64,000 nucleotides of DNA from contig OZ244786.1 in assembly GCA_965219675.1 (NCBI GenBank), positions 3,674,597-3,738,596 of the forward strand. Reading direction: 5' to 3'. The translations under genes were made by a program, and so were the position numbers. The notes under the pieces were generated by a model. That model was not told the origin of the DNA. It saw only the letters and a list, made by a program, of their open reading frames with translations, and did not search any database. Positions 14,392 to 20,630 of the stretch are shown in pieces (the stretch's first letter is position 1; each line of letters opens with the position of its first letter). The DNA comes from Candidatus Multivorans sp. (GTDB lineage Bacteria > Acidobacteriota > Thermoanaerobaculia > Multivoradales > Multivoraceae).

Positions 14392-14500
14392 AGTCGACTC
14401 GCGGCTCAGCGAGGTTGTCGCGACGCCGGTGGGCATTCGCCGGTGGCGGCGGGGCTTGGGTCGATTGACGGACGGCCGGCCCCTCGGATAACAAGACCGC

Positions 14501-15715
14501 ATGCTGTCACCCGAAGGAGCTTGGAAGGCCATCGAGGCGGAAGCGCAGACACTCGAAGTCGAGCAAGTCTCCAGGGCGGATTCTGTCGGCCGGGTGCTGG
14601 CGGCGGGCCTCACGGCGACCGTCGACGTGCCCGCGCACGACGTCTCGGCGATGGACGGCTTCGCCCTCGGCGCGGACGTCGAACCGGGAACCGTGCTGCC
14701 GGTCGACGGAATCGTCGCCGCGGGAGACCCGCCGGGAGCGGAGCTTCGATCCGGAGCGGCGTTGCGGATCATGACCGGCGCGCCGGCGCCTTCCGGGGCG
14801 GACCGGGTGATCCCGATCGAACAGACGGAGTTCGATGCCGCGGACGAAACGGGGGCCACGGGAGCCGTCCGCATCGTGGAACCGGTGCCGGAGGATAGCC
14901 ACATCCGGCGGCAGGCCGAGGTCACCGCCGCCGGCGGGCCGCTGCTGGCGGCGGGAGAACTGCTGACGCCGGGCGGAGCCGGCGTGCTGGCGACCCACGG
15001 CATTCCCGAGGCGCCGGTGTTCCGCCGGCCCGCCGTCGCGACCCTCTCGACAGGCGACGAGGTCGTTCCGGCGGAAGCGGAACCGGGTCCGGGTCAGCTT
15101 CGGGATTCGCACCGCGACTTCCTGCGGGCCGCCCTCTCCCAACTGGGCATCGAAGCGCGCTCGCTCGGCATCGCGCGGGACGACCCCGCCGAGCTCGAGT
15201 CGAAGATCGCAAGCGGCCTCGAGTCGGACGTGCTCCTGATCTCCGGCGGCGTCTCCATGGGCGAGTTCGACTTCGTGGAACAGGTTCTCGGCGACACGGG
15301 TCTCGGCTGCCGCATCCTGTTCGACGCGGTGGCGATCCAGCCCGGGAAGCCCCTGGTCGCGGCGCGCCACGACCGGGGATGGGTCTTCGGCCTGCCCGGC
15401 AATCCCGCCTCGGCCATGGTCACGTACTGGCTGTTCGTGCGCCCCCTGTTGCGCCGCATGGCCGGCGCGGACGACAGTTGCTGGCAGGGCGCCCTCAGGG
15501 CCCGGCTCGAGGGCGACCTGCCGGGCGCGAAGTGGCGCGACCGCTTCCTGCCCTGCCGGCTCCGGACCGTGTCCGGGCGGGTGCTGGCGGACCCCCGACC
15601 GCCCCTGGGCTCCCACGACCTGGTCGCCTACGGCGCCGGCTCCGGGCTGGTGCGCGTGCCGAAGCACAGTGCCCCTGCCGCTGCCGGGGATCCCTGCGAG
15701 GTCCTGCCTCTGTAG
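14501..15715 (+). CDS. moeA: molybdopterin molybdenumtransferase
   Basis: SAMDGFA and GGVSMG MoeA motifs. Confidence 0.8.
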   Translation: MLSPEGAWKAIEAEAQTLEVEQVSRADSVGRVLAAGLTATVDVPAHDVSAMDGFALGADVEPGTVLPVDGIVAAGDPPGAELRSGAALRIMTGAPAPSGADRVIPIEQTEFDAADETGATGAVRIVEPVPEDSHIRRQAEVTAAGGPLLAAGELLTPGGAGVLATHGIPEAPVFRRPAVATLSTGDEVVPAEAEPGPGQLRDSHRDFLRAALSQLGIEARSLGIARDDPAELESKIASGLESDVLLISGGVSMGEFDFVEQVLGDTGLGCRILFDAVAIQPGKPLVAARHDRGWVFGLPGNPASAMVTYWLFVRPLLRRMAGADDSCWQGALRARLEGDLPGAKWRDRFLPCRLRTVSGRVLADPRPPLGSHDLVAYGAGSGLVRVPKHSAPAAAGDPCEVLPL

Positions 15716-15767
15716 CGCCTCCCTTCGCTCCCCGCCTGCTGCTACACTCACGCGCCGCCGACCCGGA

Positions 15768-15843
<76 letters not shown>

Positions 15844-15862
15844 TTCCGGTCGGCCTGAGCAC

Positions 15863-16462
15863 TCACTCCGGGCGGGCGCTGTCGAGCATTGCCAGGAAGG
15901 CCTGTCGCTGCTCCCGCATCGTGGATGCGGGTCCGACGGCACGCAGGAACCAGGGGCCGCCGGGCGCTTCGATGACCGCGCCGTAGAGCGCGAAGTCCGG
16001 CTGGTCCGTACTCGGGAAGCTGCCGATCGTGCTCGCCCTGACCATGCCCTCGAGTTCGATCCAGGTACGGCGGACGCCGTCGCTCTCGCGGCTCTGCGGG
16101 ATCGCTTCGGGAGCGCCGGGATCGAGGACGACCTGGCTCTTCCAGCGTTCGATGTTCGCCGCCGCGCCACCGCCGCCGCCGGGTCCGAAGTAGTACATCG
16201 AGATCTCGCCCGCGCCGCCCGAGCCCGGAATCCCGGCCTCGAGCATGCGCATCGCGGACCGGGGTTCGAGCCGGTCCCACGCCGCCGGCAGCGCGATCGA
16301 CACGCCGTTCGCGGTCACCGGCGCCGACAGTTCGACTGCCTGGGCGACTTCCTCGGCGCCGGCGTTGCCCTGGGCCGGCGCATCCGGGCCGCAGGCCAGG
16401 AGCAGGATCGTCAGGCCGAGCACCGGAACGCGGGGCAGCGGGGTAGCGGTCGGCGTCGTCAT
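15863..16462 (-). CDS. hypothetical lipoprotein
   Basis: Lipobox LTILLLACG after signal; Gly-rich; alternative ATG at 16477. Confidence 0.5.
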   Translation of the reverse strand: MTTPTATPLPRVPVLGLTILLLACGPDAPAQGNAGAEEVAQAVELSAPVTANGVSIALPAAWDRLEPRSAMRMLEAGIPGSGGAGEISMYYFGPGGGGGAAANIERWKSQVVLDPGAPEAIPQSRESDGVRRTWIELEGMVRASTIGSFPSTDQPDFALYGAVIEAPGGPWFLRAVGPASTMREQRQAFLAMLDSARPE

Positions 16463-16529
16463 CGCTTGGCTCCTCATGCGGTCATCGACTCAGGCGAACA
16501 GCCGGTCGGCTGAGGATATGCTGCCCGGC

Positions 16530-16629
16530 GGAAGCGCTCGGGGGCTGGTGCCTCCTGCGGTCTTCAAAACCGTTGTCCGGGGCGTGATGCGTCTCCGGGG
16601 GTGGGTTCGATTCCCATGCGCTTCCGCCA
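16530..16629 (+). tRNA. selC: tRNA-Sec (selenocysteine, anticodon UCA)
   Basis: 8-bp acceptor stem GGAAGCGC/GCGCTTCC, 6-bp D-stem with 4-nt loop, anticodon loop CTTCAAA (UCA), long variable arm, T-arm GTGGGTTCGATTCCCAT, discriminator G + CCA. Confidence 0.8.
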
Positions 16630-16744
16630 CCGGCGACCGGGTCTTCACAAGTCGCTGGTCCGGGGCGTGATGCGTCTCCGGGGGTGGGTTCGATTCCCAT
16701 GCGCTTCCGCCACGGGCGACCGGGTCTTCACCAGTCGCTCGTCC
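16579..16744 (+). repeat. tandem duplication (2 x 83 bp) of tRNA-Sec 3' part (variable arm to CCA) plus a 30-nt downstream hairpin
   Basis: Unit 16579-16661 repeated at 16662-16744 with 2 substitutions; GTCC microhomology at junctions. Confidence 0.75.
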
Positions 16745-16750
16745 GTGCCG

Positions 16751-17020
16751 CTACGAAGCCGCGGCGGCCTTGGAACTCTCGCTCTTGGGACTTTCGCTCT
16801 CCCCGGAGGAGGCCGGCGCGTCCGCCTTCTTGCCCGAGTCCGAGGCGTAGTCGTTCACGTACCAGCCGCTGCCCTTGAACTGGAACGCGGGCGCGGAGAG
16901 CAGCTTCTTCAGGCTGCTCCGGCCGCACTCCGGGCACTCCTCCAGGGGCGGCGCGGCGAACGCCTGGATCGCCTCCAGCGTGGCCTCGCACTCCGTGCAG
17001 CGGTACTCGTAGAGAGGCAT
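16751..17020 (-). CDS. FmdB-family zinc-ribbon protein
   Basis: MPLYEYRCTECEATLE...CPECG double CxxC zinc ribbon. Confidence 0.6.
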   Translation of the reverse strand: MPLYEYRCTECEATLEAIQAFAAPPLEECPECGRSSLKKLLSAPAFQFKGSGWYVNDYASDSGKKADAPASSGESESPKSESSKAAAAS

Positions 17021-17117
17021 GGCAGCGGCGGATGATAGCAGTTGGCAGCAGTCTCCGGTGCAAGCTGCCAATCACCGGCCGCGCCGACCTGCGGAGCAGC
17101 GGCCCCCGCGCGACCCG

Positions 17118-17696
17118 CTAGAACTGGTACGCCAGACCGACGTGGGCCGCCGCGTACGTGCTGGCTGCATCGATGTCGGCGTAGTGGCCCGACAGCTCGA
17201 TCACCACGGAGAGCCGGTTGTTGATCCGGAAGTCGCCGGAGACGCCGAGCGTCAGACCGGGGCCCTCCTCGGACTCCGCGCCGTTCCCGAGCTGGTAGAG
17301 ACCGAGCCCGAAGAACACACCCGACTCGTAGTACAGCTCCTGGAAGCGGTACTCACCCGCGATCGTCGCGTAGCGGAAGGTCGGGCTCTCGATGGGACCA
17401 ACCTGATCGCCGCTGAGACCGAAACTGCCAAGGCGAATCCCGACCGCGGTGCGCGGCTGCGTGCGCCAGGAGAAGCCGGCCTGCACTCCTCCGTTGTCGG
17501 TTCCCTCGCTGAAACTGCCGCCGATCGACGGGCTGAGCGTGACCGTGTAGCTGTAGCGCTCCTGGGCCGTGGCCGCGCCCGCAGCGGCGAGCAGCAGCAG
17601 AACCGCCGCCAGCAGGAAGACGACGGGACGGTAAGCGGGTCGCGACGCCCACGGGCGCGCGCACCCGGGGCGGGACTGAGGATCCGATGCGGTCAA
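17118..17696 (-). CDS. outer-membrane beta-barrel protein (OmpA/OmpW-like porin family)
   Basis: Signal peptide VVFLLAAVLLLLAAAGAATA, alternating amphipathic strands, C-terminal ...LAYQF; TTG start with AAGGAG RBS. Confidence 0.55.
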   Translation of the reverse strand: MTASDPQSRPGCARPWASRPAYRPVVFLLAAVLLLLAAAGAATAQERYSYTVTLSPSIGGSFSEGTDNGGVQAGFSWRTQPRTAVGIRLGSFGLSGDQVGPIESPTFRYATIAGEYRFQELYYESGVFFGLGLYQLGNGAESEEGPGLTLGVSGDFRINNRLSVVIELSGHYADIDAASTYAAAHVGLAYQF

Positions 17697-17779
17697 GTGA
17701 ATCTCCTTCGGGTGCGCCGGGCACTCTAGCAACCGGCCCCCCGAAGAGCGCCGGATGAAATCCGTCCTTGTCGGCAGGA

Positions 17780-18556
17780 ATGACCGAGAACGGCCCACCC
17801 ACCGGACGACTGCCTACTTCGTTCTACGGATCCCGACGGCGAAACGTCTGTAGCCGTTTCCGGTCCACGGCAATACGCCTCGGCCGGATCGCCTCTGTCT
17901 GCGCGCGTCGCGCCGGCGCGTTCGCCCTCGAACTGCTCCTGCCCCGGGTCTGCCTCGCGTGCTCCGCACCGGCCGAGCGGGAACTCAGCCTGTGCCTGGC
18001 ATGCCGCCGCCTGCTCGAACCGCCTCCACAGGGCGTCGCGGCCGGCGACAGCCTGGAGGGATGCGATGCCTTCTTCTGGCTCTGGGTGTACCGGCCGCCG
18101 ATGGACCGGGTCATCCTGGGACTGAAACACCACCGCCTCGACTATCTCGGACGGCACATCGCGGCCAGCGCCGTGGACGCGCTGGGAATGGAGCTGGGCC
18201 GCGCGGAGTTGATCGTCCCGATGCCCATGCACTGGCGCCGCCGCCTCGTCCGCGGCCGAAACCACGCCGAGTCGATCGCCAGTCCGCTGGCGGCGAAGCT
18301 CGGACGCCCCCGGCGCGCCGCGCTGCGTCGCCGGACCCTGGGCCGGCCCCAGGTCGGACGAAGCCGGCGCCAGCGGCTCGCCAACCCGACCGTCATGTTC
18401 CACTGCCCCCGGCCGGCCGATGTCCGTGATCGCGTCGTGCTCCTCGTGGACGACGTCGTCACCACGGGCGCCACGGCCGCTCGCGCCGCCCGCTGCCTGC
18501 GGGCCGCGGGCGCGGCGGAGGTCATCGTGTTCACTCCCGCGCGGACGCCGGGATGA
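17780..18556 (+). CDS. comF: ComF-family phosphoribosyltransferase-domain protein
   Basis: N-terminal zinc ribbon CLAC...CLAC and PRTase motif LLVDDVVTTGAT. Confidence 0.65.
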   Translation: MTENGPPTGRLPTSFYGSRRRNVCSRFRSTAIRLGRIASVCARRAGAFALELLLPRVCLACSAPAERELSLCLACRRLLEPPPQGVAAGDSLEGCDAFFWLWVYRPPMDRVILGLKHHRLDYLGRHIAASAVDALGMELGRAELIVPMPMHWRRRLVRGRNHAESIASPLAAKLGRPRRAALRRRTLGRPQVGRSRRQRLANPTVMFHCPRPADVRDRVVLLVDDVVTTGATAARAARCLRAAGAAEVIVFTPARTPG

Positions 18557-18590
18557 CCGGCCAACTCTTCCGCTATAGTGGCTAGCTGAC

Positions 18591-20630
18591 ATGACTTGCC
18601 GGAACCATCCCGGCGGCTCCCGGTCGACCGTGGCGCTCTCGCGCCTGCTCGCGGCGGGAGCCCTCGCGCCGGTCGCCGCGGTAGCCATGTTCGCCGCCGC
18701 GCCCGTCCGGGCGGGCCTCGACGTGCCCAGCCTCGGCGATCCGACCGCCGGCCGCCTGGTCGGCCGCGTCCACGCCGGCAAGGCTCCGCTGCCCGCGGCC
18801 AACGTCTACGTCTACGACGTCGCGGACAGCAGCAAGCTCCTCGCGACGACGGATCGCTTCGGGCGTTACGCCTTCCAGCCCCTGCCAGCCGGCATCTACC
18901 GGGTGATCGCCCACCGGCCGGGCTACGTCCCCGCGGTGGCGGAACTCACCCGCACGACGGGCGAATCCGTCCAGTCGCTCGACTTCGAGCTGGGAACCCG
19001 GGCACGCCGCTCCGGCGAGGACGACGAAGAGGACTTCTGGTCGGTCCGCGCCCGGATCCCCAGCGACGTGCTGCGCCAGATCCAGATCGCCGAAGCGATC
19101 GCCGACGATTCCGGCTGGGCCCTCGAGACGGCGATCCAGCGGGAGCGATTCGAAGCCGAGCTGAGGACCCTCTCCGGGATCGAAGAGGCCGGCGAGGCCG
19201 GCGCCCTGGTGCTGGGCAGCCAGATCGATCTCCGCAGCCGGTTCGGCGAAACGCAGCTCGCCCTTCGCTCCGATCTGCGCGAGTTCAAGCGTCAGGCCTT
19301 CCGGGCCGACGCCGCGCAGCAGCCGGTCGGCGACAGCCAGGCCTTCGCCCTCGACGTGAACCACCGGGGTTCGAACATCCAGTTCACGTCGCAACGCCAC
19401 CGCTTCCAGGGTCCACGGGCCGGAGCCTGGGACGAGCGGGACCCCGGGGCCGGCGGACTGGAGAGCTACGGCGTGCGCCTGGAGCAGGCGGCCGGCGGAG
19501 GAGCCTCCCACTTCGAGGCCCGCTACACCACGGACAACAACTTCCACCACGGCTTCGGCGACCTCTACGCCGGCCCGAGCGGCGTCCACAGCCGAGCGCT
19601 GGCCGCGATCGACTCGCCGATGTCCTCGACGACCCTCGAGTTCCGCGGCGCCTACGAACGGCAGATCACCGCCAGCACGTCTCTCGAGACCGGCATCAGC
19701 TACCGCGAGCGCCAGGCCTACGGCGACGGCCCGCTGTCCAGTTGGGGCGAGGATCCCCACCAGCGTTTCGACGTCTTCGGCCAGGGAGACTGGGAGATCC
19801 AGCCCACCGTCGTCCTCGAGTACGGCATGTTCAGCACCCTGAGCGACGGCAGTCTCTCGTTCACGCCCCAGGCCGGCTTCGTCGTCGAACTCGGTCCAAA
19901 CTGGCTGGCCAGCGTCGCGGCGAGCCAGCGGGTCGACTCCGAACAGTTCCTCTTTCGCGACTTCCTGCCCGTGCAGTACCAGGACGACGAAACCTGCAGC
20001 ACGACCTACGAGCACTGCTACCGGGTCAAGCTCAGCCGCCAGCTCGGCGCATCGGGTCAGGACCACGGCATCGAGTTCGGCGTGAACCGGCGGCAGTTCG
20101 CCGACAACGTCCGGCTGTACTTCAGCCGCGACGTCTTCGACCGGCTGGAGAGCCTGCTGCTCGTGGACGGCGACCAGGTCGAGGAAATCCAGTTCGGTCT
20201 CCAGCAGCGCCTGGGCGAGAAGATCCTGACCCGCGTCAGCTCCGCGGCCGCCGTCGGCGGCGGCGGCCTGCTCCGGGCCAAGGACGGCAGCGGTCTCCGC
20301 AACGACGTCCGCTACCTCGTCGCAAGCGCCGACACACACTTCGAGCGCAGCTCGACCGGCGTCCTCGTCGCCTACCGCTGGGTGGAACAGGAACTCTCGC
20401 CAGTCACCCACGACGTCGCCGACTTCCGGCCCGCCCGCGCGGACACCGTGCTCGCCGTCGAACGCATCCAGGTCGTGCTGACCCAGGACCTGCCCTGGGT
20501 CACGGGCCTGCAGAACTGGGCCCTGCAACTCGAGATGCAGGTCAGTCGCGGACACGTCCCGATCGACTCCAGCCACGACCCCGACGAGCTCCGTCGCCGC
20601 GTCGTCGCCGGCATCGCAGTCCGCTTCTAG
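18591..20630 (+). CDS. carboxypeptidase regulatory-like domain-containing outer-membrane beta-barrel protein
   Basis: Signal peptide; CarbopepD_reg-like module (ANVYVYD...DRFGRYAF...GIYRV); long beta-rich C-terminus ending in RF. Confidence 0.6.
   Translation: MTCRNHPGGSRSTVALSRLLAAGALAPVAAVAMFAAAPVRAGLDVPSLGDPTAGRLVGRVHAGKAPLPAANVYVYDVADSSKLLATTDRFGRYAFQPLPAGIYRVIAHRPGYVPAVAELTRTTGESVQSLDFELGTRARRSGEDDEEDFWSVRARIPSDVLRQIQIAEAIADDSGWALETAIQRERFEAELRTLSGIEEAGEAGALVLGSQIDLRSRFGETQLALRSDLREFKRQAFRADAAQQPVGDSQAFALDVNHRGSNIQFTSQRHRFQGPRAGAWDERDPGAGGLESYGVRLEQAAGGGASHFEARYTTDNNFHHGFGDLYAGPSGVHSRALAAIDSPMSSTTLEFRGAYERQITASTSLETGISYRERQAYGDGPLSSWGEDPHQRFDVFGQGDWEIQPTVVLEYGMFSTLSDGSLSFTPQAGFVVELGPNWLASVAASQRVDSEQFLFRDFLPVQYQDDETCSTTYEHCYRVKLSRQLGASGQDHGIEFGVNRRQFADNVRLYFSRDVFDRLESLLLVDGDQVEEIQFGLQQRLGEKILTRVSSAAAVGGGGLLRAKDGSGLRNDVRYLVASADTHFERSSTGVLVAYRWVEQELSPVTHDVADFRPARADTVLAVERIQVVLTQDLPWVTGLQNWALQLEMQVSRGHVPIDSSHDPDELRRRVVAGIAVRF

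What the first reader, a model, noticed from the sequence alone, without database searches (positions are those of the whole stretch)
16530..16744. Selenocysteine tRNA with a tandem duplication of its 3' portion
A canonical bacterial tRNA-Sec (8-bp acceptor, 6-bp D-stem, UCA anticodon, long variable arm) implies selenoprotein synthesis; selA, selB and selD are not in the window. Immediately downstream, the segment from the variable arm through CCA plus a 30-nt hairpin is duplicated in tandem (2 x 83 bp, GTCC microhomology). Partial 3' tRNA copies normally mark integrase-mediated island insertion at selC, a classic hotspot. No island or integrase lies between the copies, so this looks like a slippage duplication or a remnant of an excised element.
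Basis: partly seen in the sequence, partly recalled or inferred. Interest (0 to 1): 0.6.

Follow-up and report, generated by a model that had tools for sequence, protein, structure and literature searches.

The report
Selenocysteine tRNA with repeated tail
A normal selenocysteine tRNA gene is followed by a non-functional repeat of its own back half; this small tandem array occurs in varying copy number in several related uncultured Acidobacteria and looks like recombination debris, not a new system.

Summary
A canonical bacterial tRNA-Sec lies at 16530-16629. ARAGORN calls it SeC/UCA and Rfam RF01852 scores it 74 bits against a threshold of 47. Its last 55 nt (A: variable arm to CCA) plus a 28-nt hairpin trailer (B) are repeated head to tail: A1-B1-A2-B2-GTCCG, at 80/83 identity.

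No integrase, island, selA, selB or selD is in the window.

This is not a private slip of this genome. The same B|A junction occurs in at least five related genomes of Thermoanaerobaculia (Ca. Multivoraceae-like). Copy number there ranges from about 1.25 to 2.4. Close relatives, and even one strain of the same species, carry single copies or visible deletion derivatives. The terminal GTCCG is the stub of a third unit, which is 28 nt long in locus L066.

Within each genome the copies match the working tRNA. Two of the three differences between copies form one compensatory pair in the trailer hairpin.

Best reading: an old tandem duplication that expands, contracts and is homogenised by unequal recombination. 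A2 is a dead fragment. An integrase scar as the ultimate origin, or a selected role, cannot be excluded.

This is ordinary biology and of modest interest.

The parts
16512..16523 (+). Conserved GAGGATATGCTG motif 7 nt upstream of the tRNA 5' end; a putative -10-like promoter element (inferred).
   Evidence: The motif is identical or nearly so in all close relatives, while the surrounding intergenic DNA diverges. The sigma-70 consensus scan found no full promoter here.
16530..16629 (+). tRNA-Sec gene (UCA anticodon, 8/5 acceptor/T architecture, CCA encoded).
   Evidence: ARAGORN; Rfam RF01852 at 74.1 bits; fold.
16575..16629 (+). A1: the 55-nt 3' portion of the tRNA (variable arm, T arm, acceptor 3' strand, GCCA). 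This is the repeated block.
16630..16657 (+). B1: 28-nt trailer. With A16629 and G16658-T16659 it forms a 9-bp hairpin (16629-16637 paired with 16651-16659). The loop contains GGTCTTCA, as in the anticodon arm.
   Evidence: RNAfold; the motif is conserved in L066, L082, L135, L144/145 and L150; the Rfam covariance model aligns it to the anticodon arm.
16658..16712 (+). A2: pseudo-copy of the tRNA 3' portion, 55/55 identical to A1. It has no acceptor 5' strand and no D arm.
   Evidence: Rfam scores B1+A2 as a 5'-truncated tRNA-Sec (model positions 22-91, 23.7 bits, below threshold). ARAGORN does not call it.
16713..16740 (+). B2: second trailer. It differs from B1 at 3 positions. Its hairpin (16712-16720 paired with 16734-16742) is preserved by a compensatory C-G to G-C change.
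16741..16745 (+). GTCCG: stub of a third unit, corresponding to the first 5 nt of the variable arm.
   Evidence: The syntenic locus L066 has 28 nt of variable arm at this place, directly before the same Zn-ribbon stop codon.
16751..17020 (-). Convergent FmdB-type Zn-ribbon gene. Its stop codon lies 5 nt beyond the array and marks the array's distal boundary.
   Evidence: Pfam Zn_ribbon_8, E 4e-15; translation.
15863..16462 (-). Divergent 199-aa lipoprotein-like gene, always adjacent to tRNA-Sec in relatives. Used as the anchor for comparative look-ups.

Best explanation
The window holds a working, canonical bacterial tRNA-Sec gene. It is followed by a short head-to-tail array made of its own last 55 nt (A) plus a 28-nt hairpin trailer (B): A1-B1-A2-B2 and then a 5-nt stub of a third A.

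A2 lacks the acceptor 5' strand, the D arm and a true anticodon arm. It therefore cannot give a tRNA and is a pseudo-fragment.

The array descends from a duplication that was already present in the common ancestor of a group of Thermoanaerobaculia (Ca. Multivoraceae-like Acidobacteriota). Since then, three things have happened:
- Unequal homologous recombination or slipped mispairing between the 55-nt direct repeats has expanded it (window, L066), contracted it, or deleted it.
- The same recombination keeps the proximal copies identical to the functional tRNA (concerted evolution).
- The distal end decays.

The trailer hairpin, which starts at the A of CCA, most likely serves as the 3' processing or termination hairpin of the tRNA transcript. 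No integrase is involved in the present structure.

Shown: the anatomy, the distribution among relatives, the deletion derivatives, within-genome identity, and the compensatory changes.
Inferred: the recombination mechanism, the role of the hairpin, and the lack of function of A2.
For: (1) The array is an exact tandem with no foreign DNA, and its unit includes the non-tRNA trailer.

(2) The same junction, GTCGCTG|GTCCGGGG, is found in:
- L066, Ca. Multivorans sp., syntenic, period 77, 2.4 copies;
- L144/L145, two independent assemblies, 55-nt repeat at spacing 87;
- L150, the closest strain, whose contig ends inside A2;
- L082, as GTCGATG|GTCCGGGG with a 21-nt partial copy.
L045 has A1, then 100 N, then A2.

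(3) Relatives show single copies and ragged deletion derivatives that keep pieces of B: L137 has CCGGCG|CCGCTACG, L135 has a B remnant, and L060 has an 85-nt deletion relative to L144. L143 and L144/145 encode the same lipoprotein (P0020) but differ in presence or absence of the copy.

(4) There is concerted evolution. In L066, A1 and A2 share a derived G to A change that the third partial copy lacks. Both window trailers carry ACCGGG, which both L066 trailers lack.

(5) In an NJ tree, array-bearing genomes are scattered among single-copy sisters in all three sub-clades.

(6) Two of the three differences between the window copies form one base pair of the hairpin (C16631-G16657 becomes G16714-C16740). 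L082 shows a further G-C to T-A change.

(7) No integrase is present in the window. No phage or plasmid carries B+A.
Against: - The 55-nt block is sharply bounded at the first variable-arm base and at CCA in three different downstream contexts: B2 in the window and L066, flank Y plus cargo in L144/145, and flank X in L045. This resembles an att identity segment more than a decaying duplication.
- The 3' 20 nt of B resemble the anticodon arm (GCGGTCTTCA 10-mer in L082, L135 and L144). The Rfam model aligns B1+A2 to positions 22-91. So the original copy had the extent typical of integrase att fragments.
- Keeping a perfect A2 in five diverged lineages, despite easy loss, could reflect selection.
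- Zero differences in the 55 nt of A2 against three in the trailers is not significant (about P=0.1-0.25), so it neither supports nor excludes constraint.
- No expression data exist.
Confidence: 0.6

Rival explanations
1. The first B-A2 module is the scar of a site-specific integration at tRNA-Sec. On this reading it is an attR-like fragment running from the anticodon arm to CCA, and the element was later deleted almost completely. The extra unit in the window and L066 then arose by unequal crossing-over.
For: - tRNA-Sec is used as an attachment site in the same data set. L044 has a tyrosine integrase between the tRNA and a 3' fragment. L042 has three fragments with cargo between them. Viral contig L133 carries a fragment.
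- B resembles the anticodon arm with the same left boundary (GGTCTTCA) as those fragments.
- The identity block is sharply bounded at 55 nt and ends exactly at CCA.
- There is a presence/absence polymorphism with cargo genes next to A2 within one species.
Against: - Only 8-12 nt of non-tRNA-like DNA separate CCA from the fragment.
- No integrase is present in the window or in the L144/L145 cargo.
- The part of B that should be identical under an anticodon-loop crossover, the 3' half of the stem, is the diverged part.
- Precise excision or A1 x A2 recombination would leave a single copy, so a near-total internal deletion has to be assumed.
- No phage or plasmid carries B+A.
Confidence: 0.2
2. 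The repeat is kept by selection because it does something. Candidate roles are a decoy or secondary attB that lets elements land without disrupting the working tRNA, a reinforced terminator or processing module between two convergent genes, or a source of a tRNA-derived small RNA.
For: - A perfect A2 is retained in five diverged lineages.
- Hairpin pairing is preserved by compensatory changes in B2 and L082.
- The 3' half of B is about 94% identical between the most distant carriers, against about 80% for the neighbouring gene.
- In L144/145, cargo genes sit directly after A2.
Against: - Most relatives, including the two nearest sisters in the tree (L134, L135) and a strain of the same species as L144/L145 (L143), lack A2.
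- Copy number and trailer length vary freely (22, 28, 31 and 32 nt).
- The distal copies are visibly decaying.
- No terminator-like U tract is present.
- Gene conversion explains the identity without selection.
Confidence: 0.12
3. The duplication is an assembly artefact in the window.
For: Short repeats at tRNA genes do break or confuse assemblies. L045 has a 100-N gap exactly between the copies, and the L147, L148 and L150 contigs end at or inside the repeat.
Against: - The two window copies differ at three positions, and two of those are compensatory. Assemblers do not invent that.
- Independent assemblies from other samples show the same architecture: L066 on a complete chromosome, and L144 and L145 from different pipelines.
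Confidence: 0.02

Closest known systems
Bacterial selenocysteine tRNA (selC product; Rfam RF01852)
   Same: It gives a full-length model match above threshold. It has the UCA anticodon, 8-bp acceptor plus 5-bp T stem, 6-bp D stem with a 4-nt loop, long variable arm and G73.
   Different: Nothing differs in the gene itself. It is only followed by a pseudo-copy of its 3' 55 nt.
Direct repeats of a tRNA 3' end left by integrase-mediated insertion (attL/attR), as at E. coli selC. tRNA gene fragments of this origin are described in PMC9897764.
   Same: A partial 3' copy of the tRNA lies in direct orientation downstream of the intact gene. tRNA-Sec is demonstrably an attachment site in related data (L044 with an integrase, L042, L133).
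   Different: - There is no element or integrase between the copies; they are 28 nt apart.
- The repeat unit includes the non-tRNA trailer.
- The array carries a third stub.
- The high-identity block starts at the variable arm, not in the anticodon or T loop.
- Copy number varies among relatives.
Short tandem duplications formed by slipped mispairing or unequal crossing-over and homogenised by concerted evolution (general mechanism; established knowledge)
   Same: Units lie head to tail. Copy numbers are 1.25, 1.6, 2.06 and 2.4. Relatives include clean loss and ragged deletion derivatives. Identity within a genome exceeds identity between genomes.
   Different: The unit is a gene fragment plus its trailer rather than a whole gene. 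One end of the array is anchored in an essential-type gene, so only the distal side can decay.

Membership tests
Bacterial tRNA-Sec (RF01852) | Covariance-model score at or above the curated threshold over the full model | tested here: met
   74.1 bits against 47; model positions 1-91; E 2.5e-13
Bacterial tRNA-Sec (RF01852) | UCA anticodon reading UGA | tested here: met
   ARAGORN calls anticodon tca at position 35; the loop is CUUCAAA
Bacterial tRNA-Sec (RF01852) | 8-bp acceptor plus 5-bp T stem, 6-bp D stem with a 4-nt loop, long variable arm, G73 | tested here: met
   Minimum-energy fold of 16530-16629; sequence
Bacterial tRNA-Sec (RF01852) | The genome encodes selA, selB and selD and has UGA/SECIS selenoprotein genes | not testable with these tools
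   None is in the 64-kb window. The only in-frame TGA candidate is the prfA stop / prmC start at 30612. The rest of the 4.5-Mb source contig could not be retrieved. Indirect support: the tRNA is conserved across relatives whose flanks diverge by 15-25%.
Integrase att-site duplication at a tRNA gene | Mobile-element DNA, usually with an integrase gene next to the tRNA, lies between the two copies | tested here: not met
   Only 28 nt separate the copies. No Phage_integrase hit is found in the window. For contrast, L044 has an integrase between its copies.
Integrase att-site duplication at a tRNA gene | The repeat is confined to the tRNA portion and starts at the anticodon loop or T loop | tested here: inconclusive
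   The window repeat extends 28 nt past CCA, and the identity block starts at the variable arm. However, B resembles the anticodon arm, and in L144/145 the repeat is exactly the 55 tRNA nucleotides.
Integrase att-site duplication at a tRNA gene | A matching attP on a phage, plasmid or ICE | tested here: not met
   No match in the phage collection. Plasmid matches cover only the T arm and acceptor. The single IMG/VR hit is in a different register and sequence.
Tandem duplication with unequal crossing-over / concerted evolution | Head-to-tail units with nothing between them, and copy number that varies among relatives | tested here: met
   Window 2.1 copies at period 83. L066 2.4 copies at period 77. 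L144/145 about 1.6 at period 87. L082 about 1.25. Many relatives have single copies.
Tandem duplication with unequal crossing-over / concerted evolution | Copies within a genome are more alike than orthologous copies between genomes | tested here: met
   In L066, A1 equals A2 and both share a derived G to A change that copy 3 and all other genomes lack. The trailer indel (ACCGGG) is shared by both copies within each genome.

The most novel reading that the evidence does not exclude
The B-A2 module is maintained by selection in this family of Thermoanaerobaculia. One possible role is a spare landing pad (secondary attB) that diverts tRNA-Sec-targeting elements away from the working gene; the cargo genes directly after A2 in L144/145 would fit this. 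Another is a structured trailer that controls tRNA-Sec 3' maturation or separates it from the convergent Zn-ribbon gene. Together with the inverted tRNA-Sec 3' copies seen downstream of the gene in other Thermoanaerobaculia, this would point to a lineage-wide habit of building elements from the tRNA-Sec 3' end.
Probability: 0.12. Interest if true: 0.55.

Novelty: new member of a known kind. Interest (0 to 1): 0.3.

Why it matters
The practical point is annotation. Partial tRNA copies are routinely read as island scars or miscalled as extra tRNA genes. This case shows a tRNA-Sec 3' fragment that is neither. It has no element attached, it is shared in varying copy number by a whole family of uncultured Acidobacteriota, and it breaks short-read assemblies exactly at the repeat.

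It also gives a small, clean example of concerted evolution anchored on an essential-type gene. If the pseudo-copy turned out to be a selected decoy attachment site or a processing module, it would say something new about how tRNA genes coexist with the elements that target them. The present evidence does not require that.

Tried and rejected
- A metagenome scan for the trailer|variable-arm junction (degenerate 21-mer) returned 13 contigs. All were unrelated coding sequences.
- Exact-protein look-ups failed for the Zn-ribbon protein and for the window's own lipoprotein P0001, so the source genome could not be read beyond the window.
- One DNA alignment of trailers (A1) used wrong L066 coordinates and was discarded. 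Trailers were compared by folding instead.
- The NJ tree misplaces L020, because that locus has an insertion between the lipoprotein gene and the tRNA, so L020 was ignored in the tree.
- The consensus promoter/terminator scan found nothing at the locus.
- The TGA at 30612 was considered as a selenoprotein candidate and rejected. It is the prfA stop next to the prmC start.
- L045's second copy was considered as evidence for an island. The 100-N gap bounded exactly by a 55-nt overlap fits a k=55 scaffold join across a short repeat. This is an inference, so L045 counts only as 'two copies, spacer unknown'.
- The idea that A2 is under purifying selection because all three differences fall in the trailers was rejected: the test is not significant.

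Full report
**1. Observation**

ARAGORN calls a tRNA-SeC with anticodon tca at 16530-16629. Rfam's tRNA-Sec model (RF01852) matches 16530-16625 end to end at 74.1 bits, against a gathering score of 47. The 100 nt fold into the bacterial Sec cloverleaf:
- an 8-bp acceptor stem;
- a 6-bp D stem with a 4-nt loop;
- an anticodon loop CUUCAAA;
- a long variable arm;
- a 5-bp T stem;
- G73 and an encoded CCA.

Tandem Repeats Finder reports 16575-16745 as period 83, 2.1 copies, 96% matches and no indels. The repeat finder gives 16575-16657 against 16658-16740. Probes from the repeat occur exactly twice in the window, with none expected in shuffles.

I call the 55 tRNA nucleotides A (variable arm to CCA) and the 28-nt trailer B. 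The locus then reads A1-B1-A2-B2-GTCCG. It ends 5 nt before the stop codon of a convergent FmdB-type Zn-ribbon gene at 16751-17020.

**2. Surroundings**

The window is 70% G+C. The genes around the tRNA are:
- moeA (14501-15715);
- tRNA-Ala(GGC);
- a 199-aa lipoprotein-like gene divergent from tRNA-Sec;
- the Zn-ribbon gene;
- an outer-membrane beta-barrel gene;
- a ComF-like phosphoribosyltransferase gene.

Pfam scans of about 45 ORFs across the 64 kb found no selA, selB, selD or tyrosine integrase. The only mobile-element genes are an IS110-family transposase and an IS200-like ORF about 19 kb away. The only TGA with coding signal on both sides is the prfA stop next to the prmC start.

**3. 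Relatives**

A scan of one genome per species for the tRNA's 3' 26-mer gave 119 loci, mostly Thermoanaerobaculia/Acidobacteriota and deltaproteobacterial lineages. The closest are labelled Thermoanaerobaculia, Holophagales or Ca. Multivorans (taxonomy).

I then used the adjacent lipoprotein as an anchor and looked up contigs for its homologues. This gave about 25 loci from the same family.

State of the tRNA-Sec 3' flank in these loci:

| Locus | Structure after the tRNA |
|---|---|
| Window | A-B(28)-A-B-GTCCG |
| L066 (syntenic; complete chromosome OZ242222.1) | A-B(22)-A-B-a(28 nt); period 77, 2.4 copies |
| L144 and L145 (two assemblies) | A-B(32)-A, then a different flank and 1.3 kb of cargo |
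| L150 (closest strain) | A-B(32)-A..., contig ends inside A2 |
| L082 | A-B(31)-a(21 nt) |
| L045 | A, 100 N, A |
| L135, L020, L060, L137 | pieces of B only |
| L134, L062, L136, L138-141, L007, L142, L143/146/149, L151-154 | single copy |

The junction GTCGCTG|GTCCGGGG is the same wherever it exists. It occurs in genomes with three different local gene orders. L143 and L144/145 encode an identical lipoprotein yet differ in having the copy. In a neighbour-joining tree of the upstream 700 nt, carriers are scattered among non-carriers in all three sub-clades.

**4. What this implies**

The junction is too specific to have arisen repeatedly by chance. The B-A2 module is therefore ancestral to the group and has been lost many times.

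Some losses are clean: the tRNA is followed directly by whatever followed A2, as expected from recombination between the 55-nt repeats (L007 compared with L045). Others are ragged microhomology deletions (L137, L060).

The window's terminal GTCCG is not a chance microhomology. It is what is left of a third unit, of which L066 retains 28 nt at the same place.

An A-B-A ancestor gives A-B-A-B-A by one unequal exchange, which fits both the window and L066.

Copies are homogenised within genomes:
- In L066, A1 and A2 share a derived G to A change that its third partial copy and all other genomes lack.
- Both window trailers contain ACCGGG, and both L066 trailers lack it.

These are the signatures of concerted evolution in a small tandem array, with decay at the distal end.

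**5. The trailer**

B folds into a hairpin that starts at the A of CCA. The stem is 9 bp in the window (16629-16637 with 16651-16659, and 16712-16720 with 16734-16742).

Of the three differences between the window copies, two are the two sides of one base pair (C-G in B1, G-C in B2). The third is in the loop. L082 has a further G-C to T-A exchange. The hairpin is therefore maintained, either by selection or by templated repair within the palindrome. I infer that it is the 3' processing or termination hairpin of the tRNA transcript. There is no U tract.

The 3' 20 nt of B resemble the anticodon arm:
- GGTCTTCA in the window;
- the 10-mer GCGGTCTTCA in L082, L135 and L144.

The Rfam model aligns B1+A2 to positions 22-91 at 23.7 bits. 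So the original duplicated segment probably began in the anticodon stem.

**6. Integrase scar or not**

tRNA-Sec is clearly an attachment site in this data set. Many loci carry 3' fragments that start in the anticodon arm (L008, L016, L026, L042 x3, L044, L063, L106, L109) or in the T loop (L017, L033, L046, L057, L102). L044 has a tyrosine integrase between the tRNA and its fragment. One IMG/VR contig carries such a fragment.

The window differs from these in five ways:
- Only 28 nt separate the copies.
- The unit includes the trailer.
- A third stub is present.
- No integrase is in the window.
- No phage or plasmid matches B+A.

Precise excision would leave one copy. The present structure is therefore recombinational.

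What I cannot settle is whether the very first B-A2 module came from a slippage duplication or from an old integration whose element was almost wholly deleted. Two features keep the second possibility alive (about 0.2): the anticodon-arm-like start of B, and the sharp 55-nt block ending exactly at CCA in three different contexts.

**7. Function of A2**

A2 has no 5' acceptor strand or D arm. ARAGORN does not call it. In a fold of the whole region, the 5' acceptor strand can pair with either 3' copy, but nothing suggests this is used.

Most relatives, including the two nearest sisters in the tree (L134, L135) and a same-species strain of another carrier (L143), do without A2. I therefore take A2 to be non-functional.

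Its perfect identity to A1 is explained by recombination. The split of differences between copies, 0 in the 55 nt of A2 against 3 in the trailers, is not statistically informative. A selected role cannot be excluded (about 0.12); candidates are a decoy attB or a processing module.

**8. Comparison with the known, and verdict**

The gene is a regular member of bacterial tRNA-Sec. The repeat is closest to two known things: att-type tRNA fragments (PMC9897764 describes these as the usual source of tRNA gene fragments) and ordinary tandem duplications with concerted evolution. It fails the defining tests of the first and meets those of the second.

It is a new instance of known kinds, not a new system. 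Interest is modest (0.3). It is a useful caution for annotation and island prediction, and a neat small case of array dynamics anchored on a tRNA gene.

Whether the organism has the rest of the selenocysteine machinery cannot be decided from this window.

Noticed in passing
window 34930-37183 (-): An IS110-family transposase (DEDD_Tnp_IS110 + Transposase_20; 35717-37183) lies next to, and overlaps, an ORF with an IS200-like Y1 transposase domain (34930-36183). These are the only mobile-element genes found in the window, and they lie about 19 kb from the tRNA-Sec.
   Followed up: no
L010, L014, L024, L030, L036, L040, L049, L076, L107 (downstream of their tRNA-Sec genes): In other Thermoanaerobaculia/Acidobacteriota the tRNA-Sec is followed within about 20-100 nt by an inverted copy of its own T-loop/acceptor 3' strand (GCGCATGGGAA...). 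Often a direct copy (CGATTCCCATGCGCT) lies further on, forming small palindromic elements. L040 carries about 113-nt tandem units of this kind. This was seen in 9 of 102 loci and is unexplained.
   Followed up: partly
window 14400-18600 compared with L045, L007, L060, L082, L151: The gene order around tRNA-Sec takes three forms among close relatives:
- A: moeA> Ala> <lipo Sec> <Znrib <OMP
- B: moeA> Znrib> <Sec lipo> <Ala <OMP
- C: moeA> Znrib> <lipo Sec> <Ala <OMP
This points to repeated inversions of a roughly 1.3-kb block.
   Followed up: partly
L007, L045, L143, L146, L149 (directly after tRNA-Sec CCA): An element of about 400 nt with about 35-bp terminal inverted repeats (MITE-like) fills the space between tRNA-Sec and the Zn-ribbon gene in these genomes.
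   Followed up: no
L044 479-2990; L042 2213-6217; L133: These are classical att-type tRNA-Sec fragments. L044 has a 2.5-kb element with a tyrosine integrase. L042 has three fragments 1.4-2.5 kb apart with OMP and PQQ-propeller cargo but no integrase between them. L133 is an IMG/VR viral contig with an anticodon-register fragment.
   Followed up: partly
L143 compared with L144/L145 (same lipoprotein P0020): Within one species, the tRNA-Sec 3' flank is either the MITE-like flank X, or B-A2 followed by about 1.3 kb of cargo (an AraC/HTH_18 + Diphthami_syn_2_N protein and a 67-aa ORF). Contigs L147 and L148 from other samples end exactly at CCA, as expected from this strain-level polymorphism.
   Followed up: partly
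L150 2238-3814: In the closest strain (JGI metagenome 3300035549), a Macro-domain gene and a DarT gene (a DarTG-like toxin-antitoxin pair) sit next to moeA. The window has the type II secretion F gene at that position.
   Followed up: no
window 15816-15837 and 16601-16622 / 16684-16705: The T arm of the neighbouring tRNA-Ala(GGC) is 86% identical over 22 nt to the tRNA-Sec T arm. These are possible short homology tracts for the local rearrangements.
   Followed up: no
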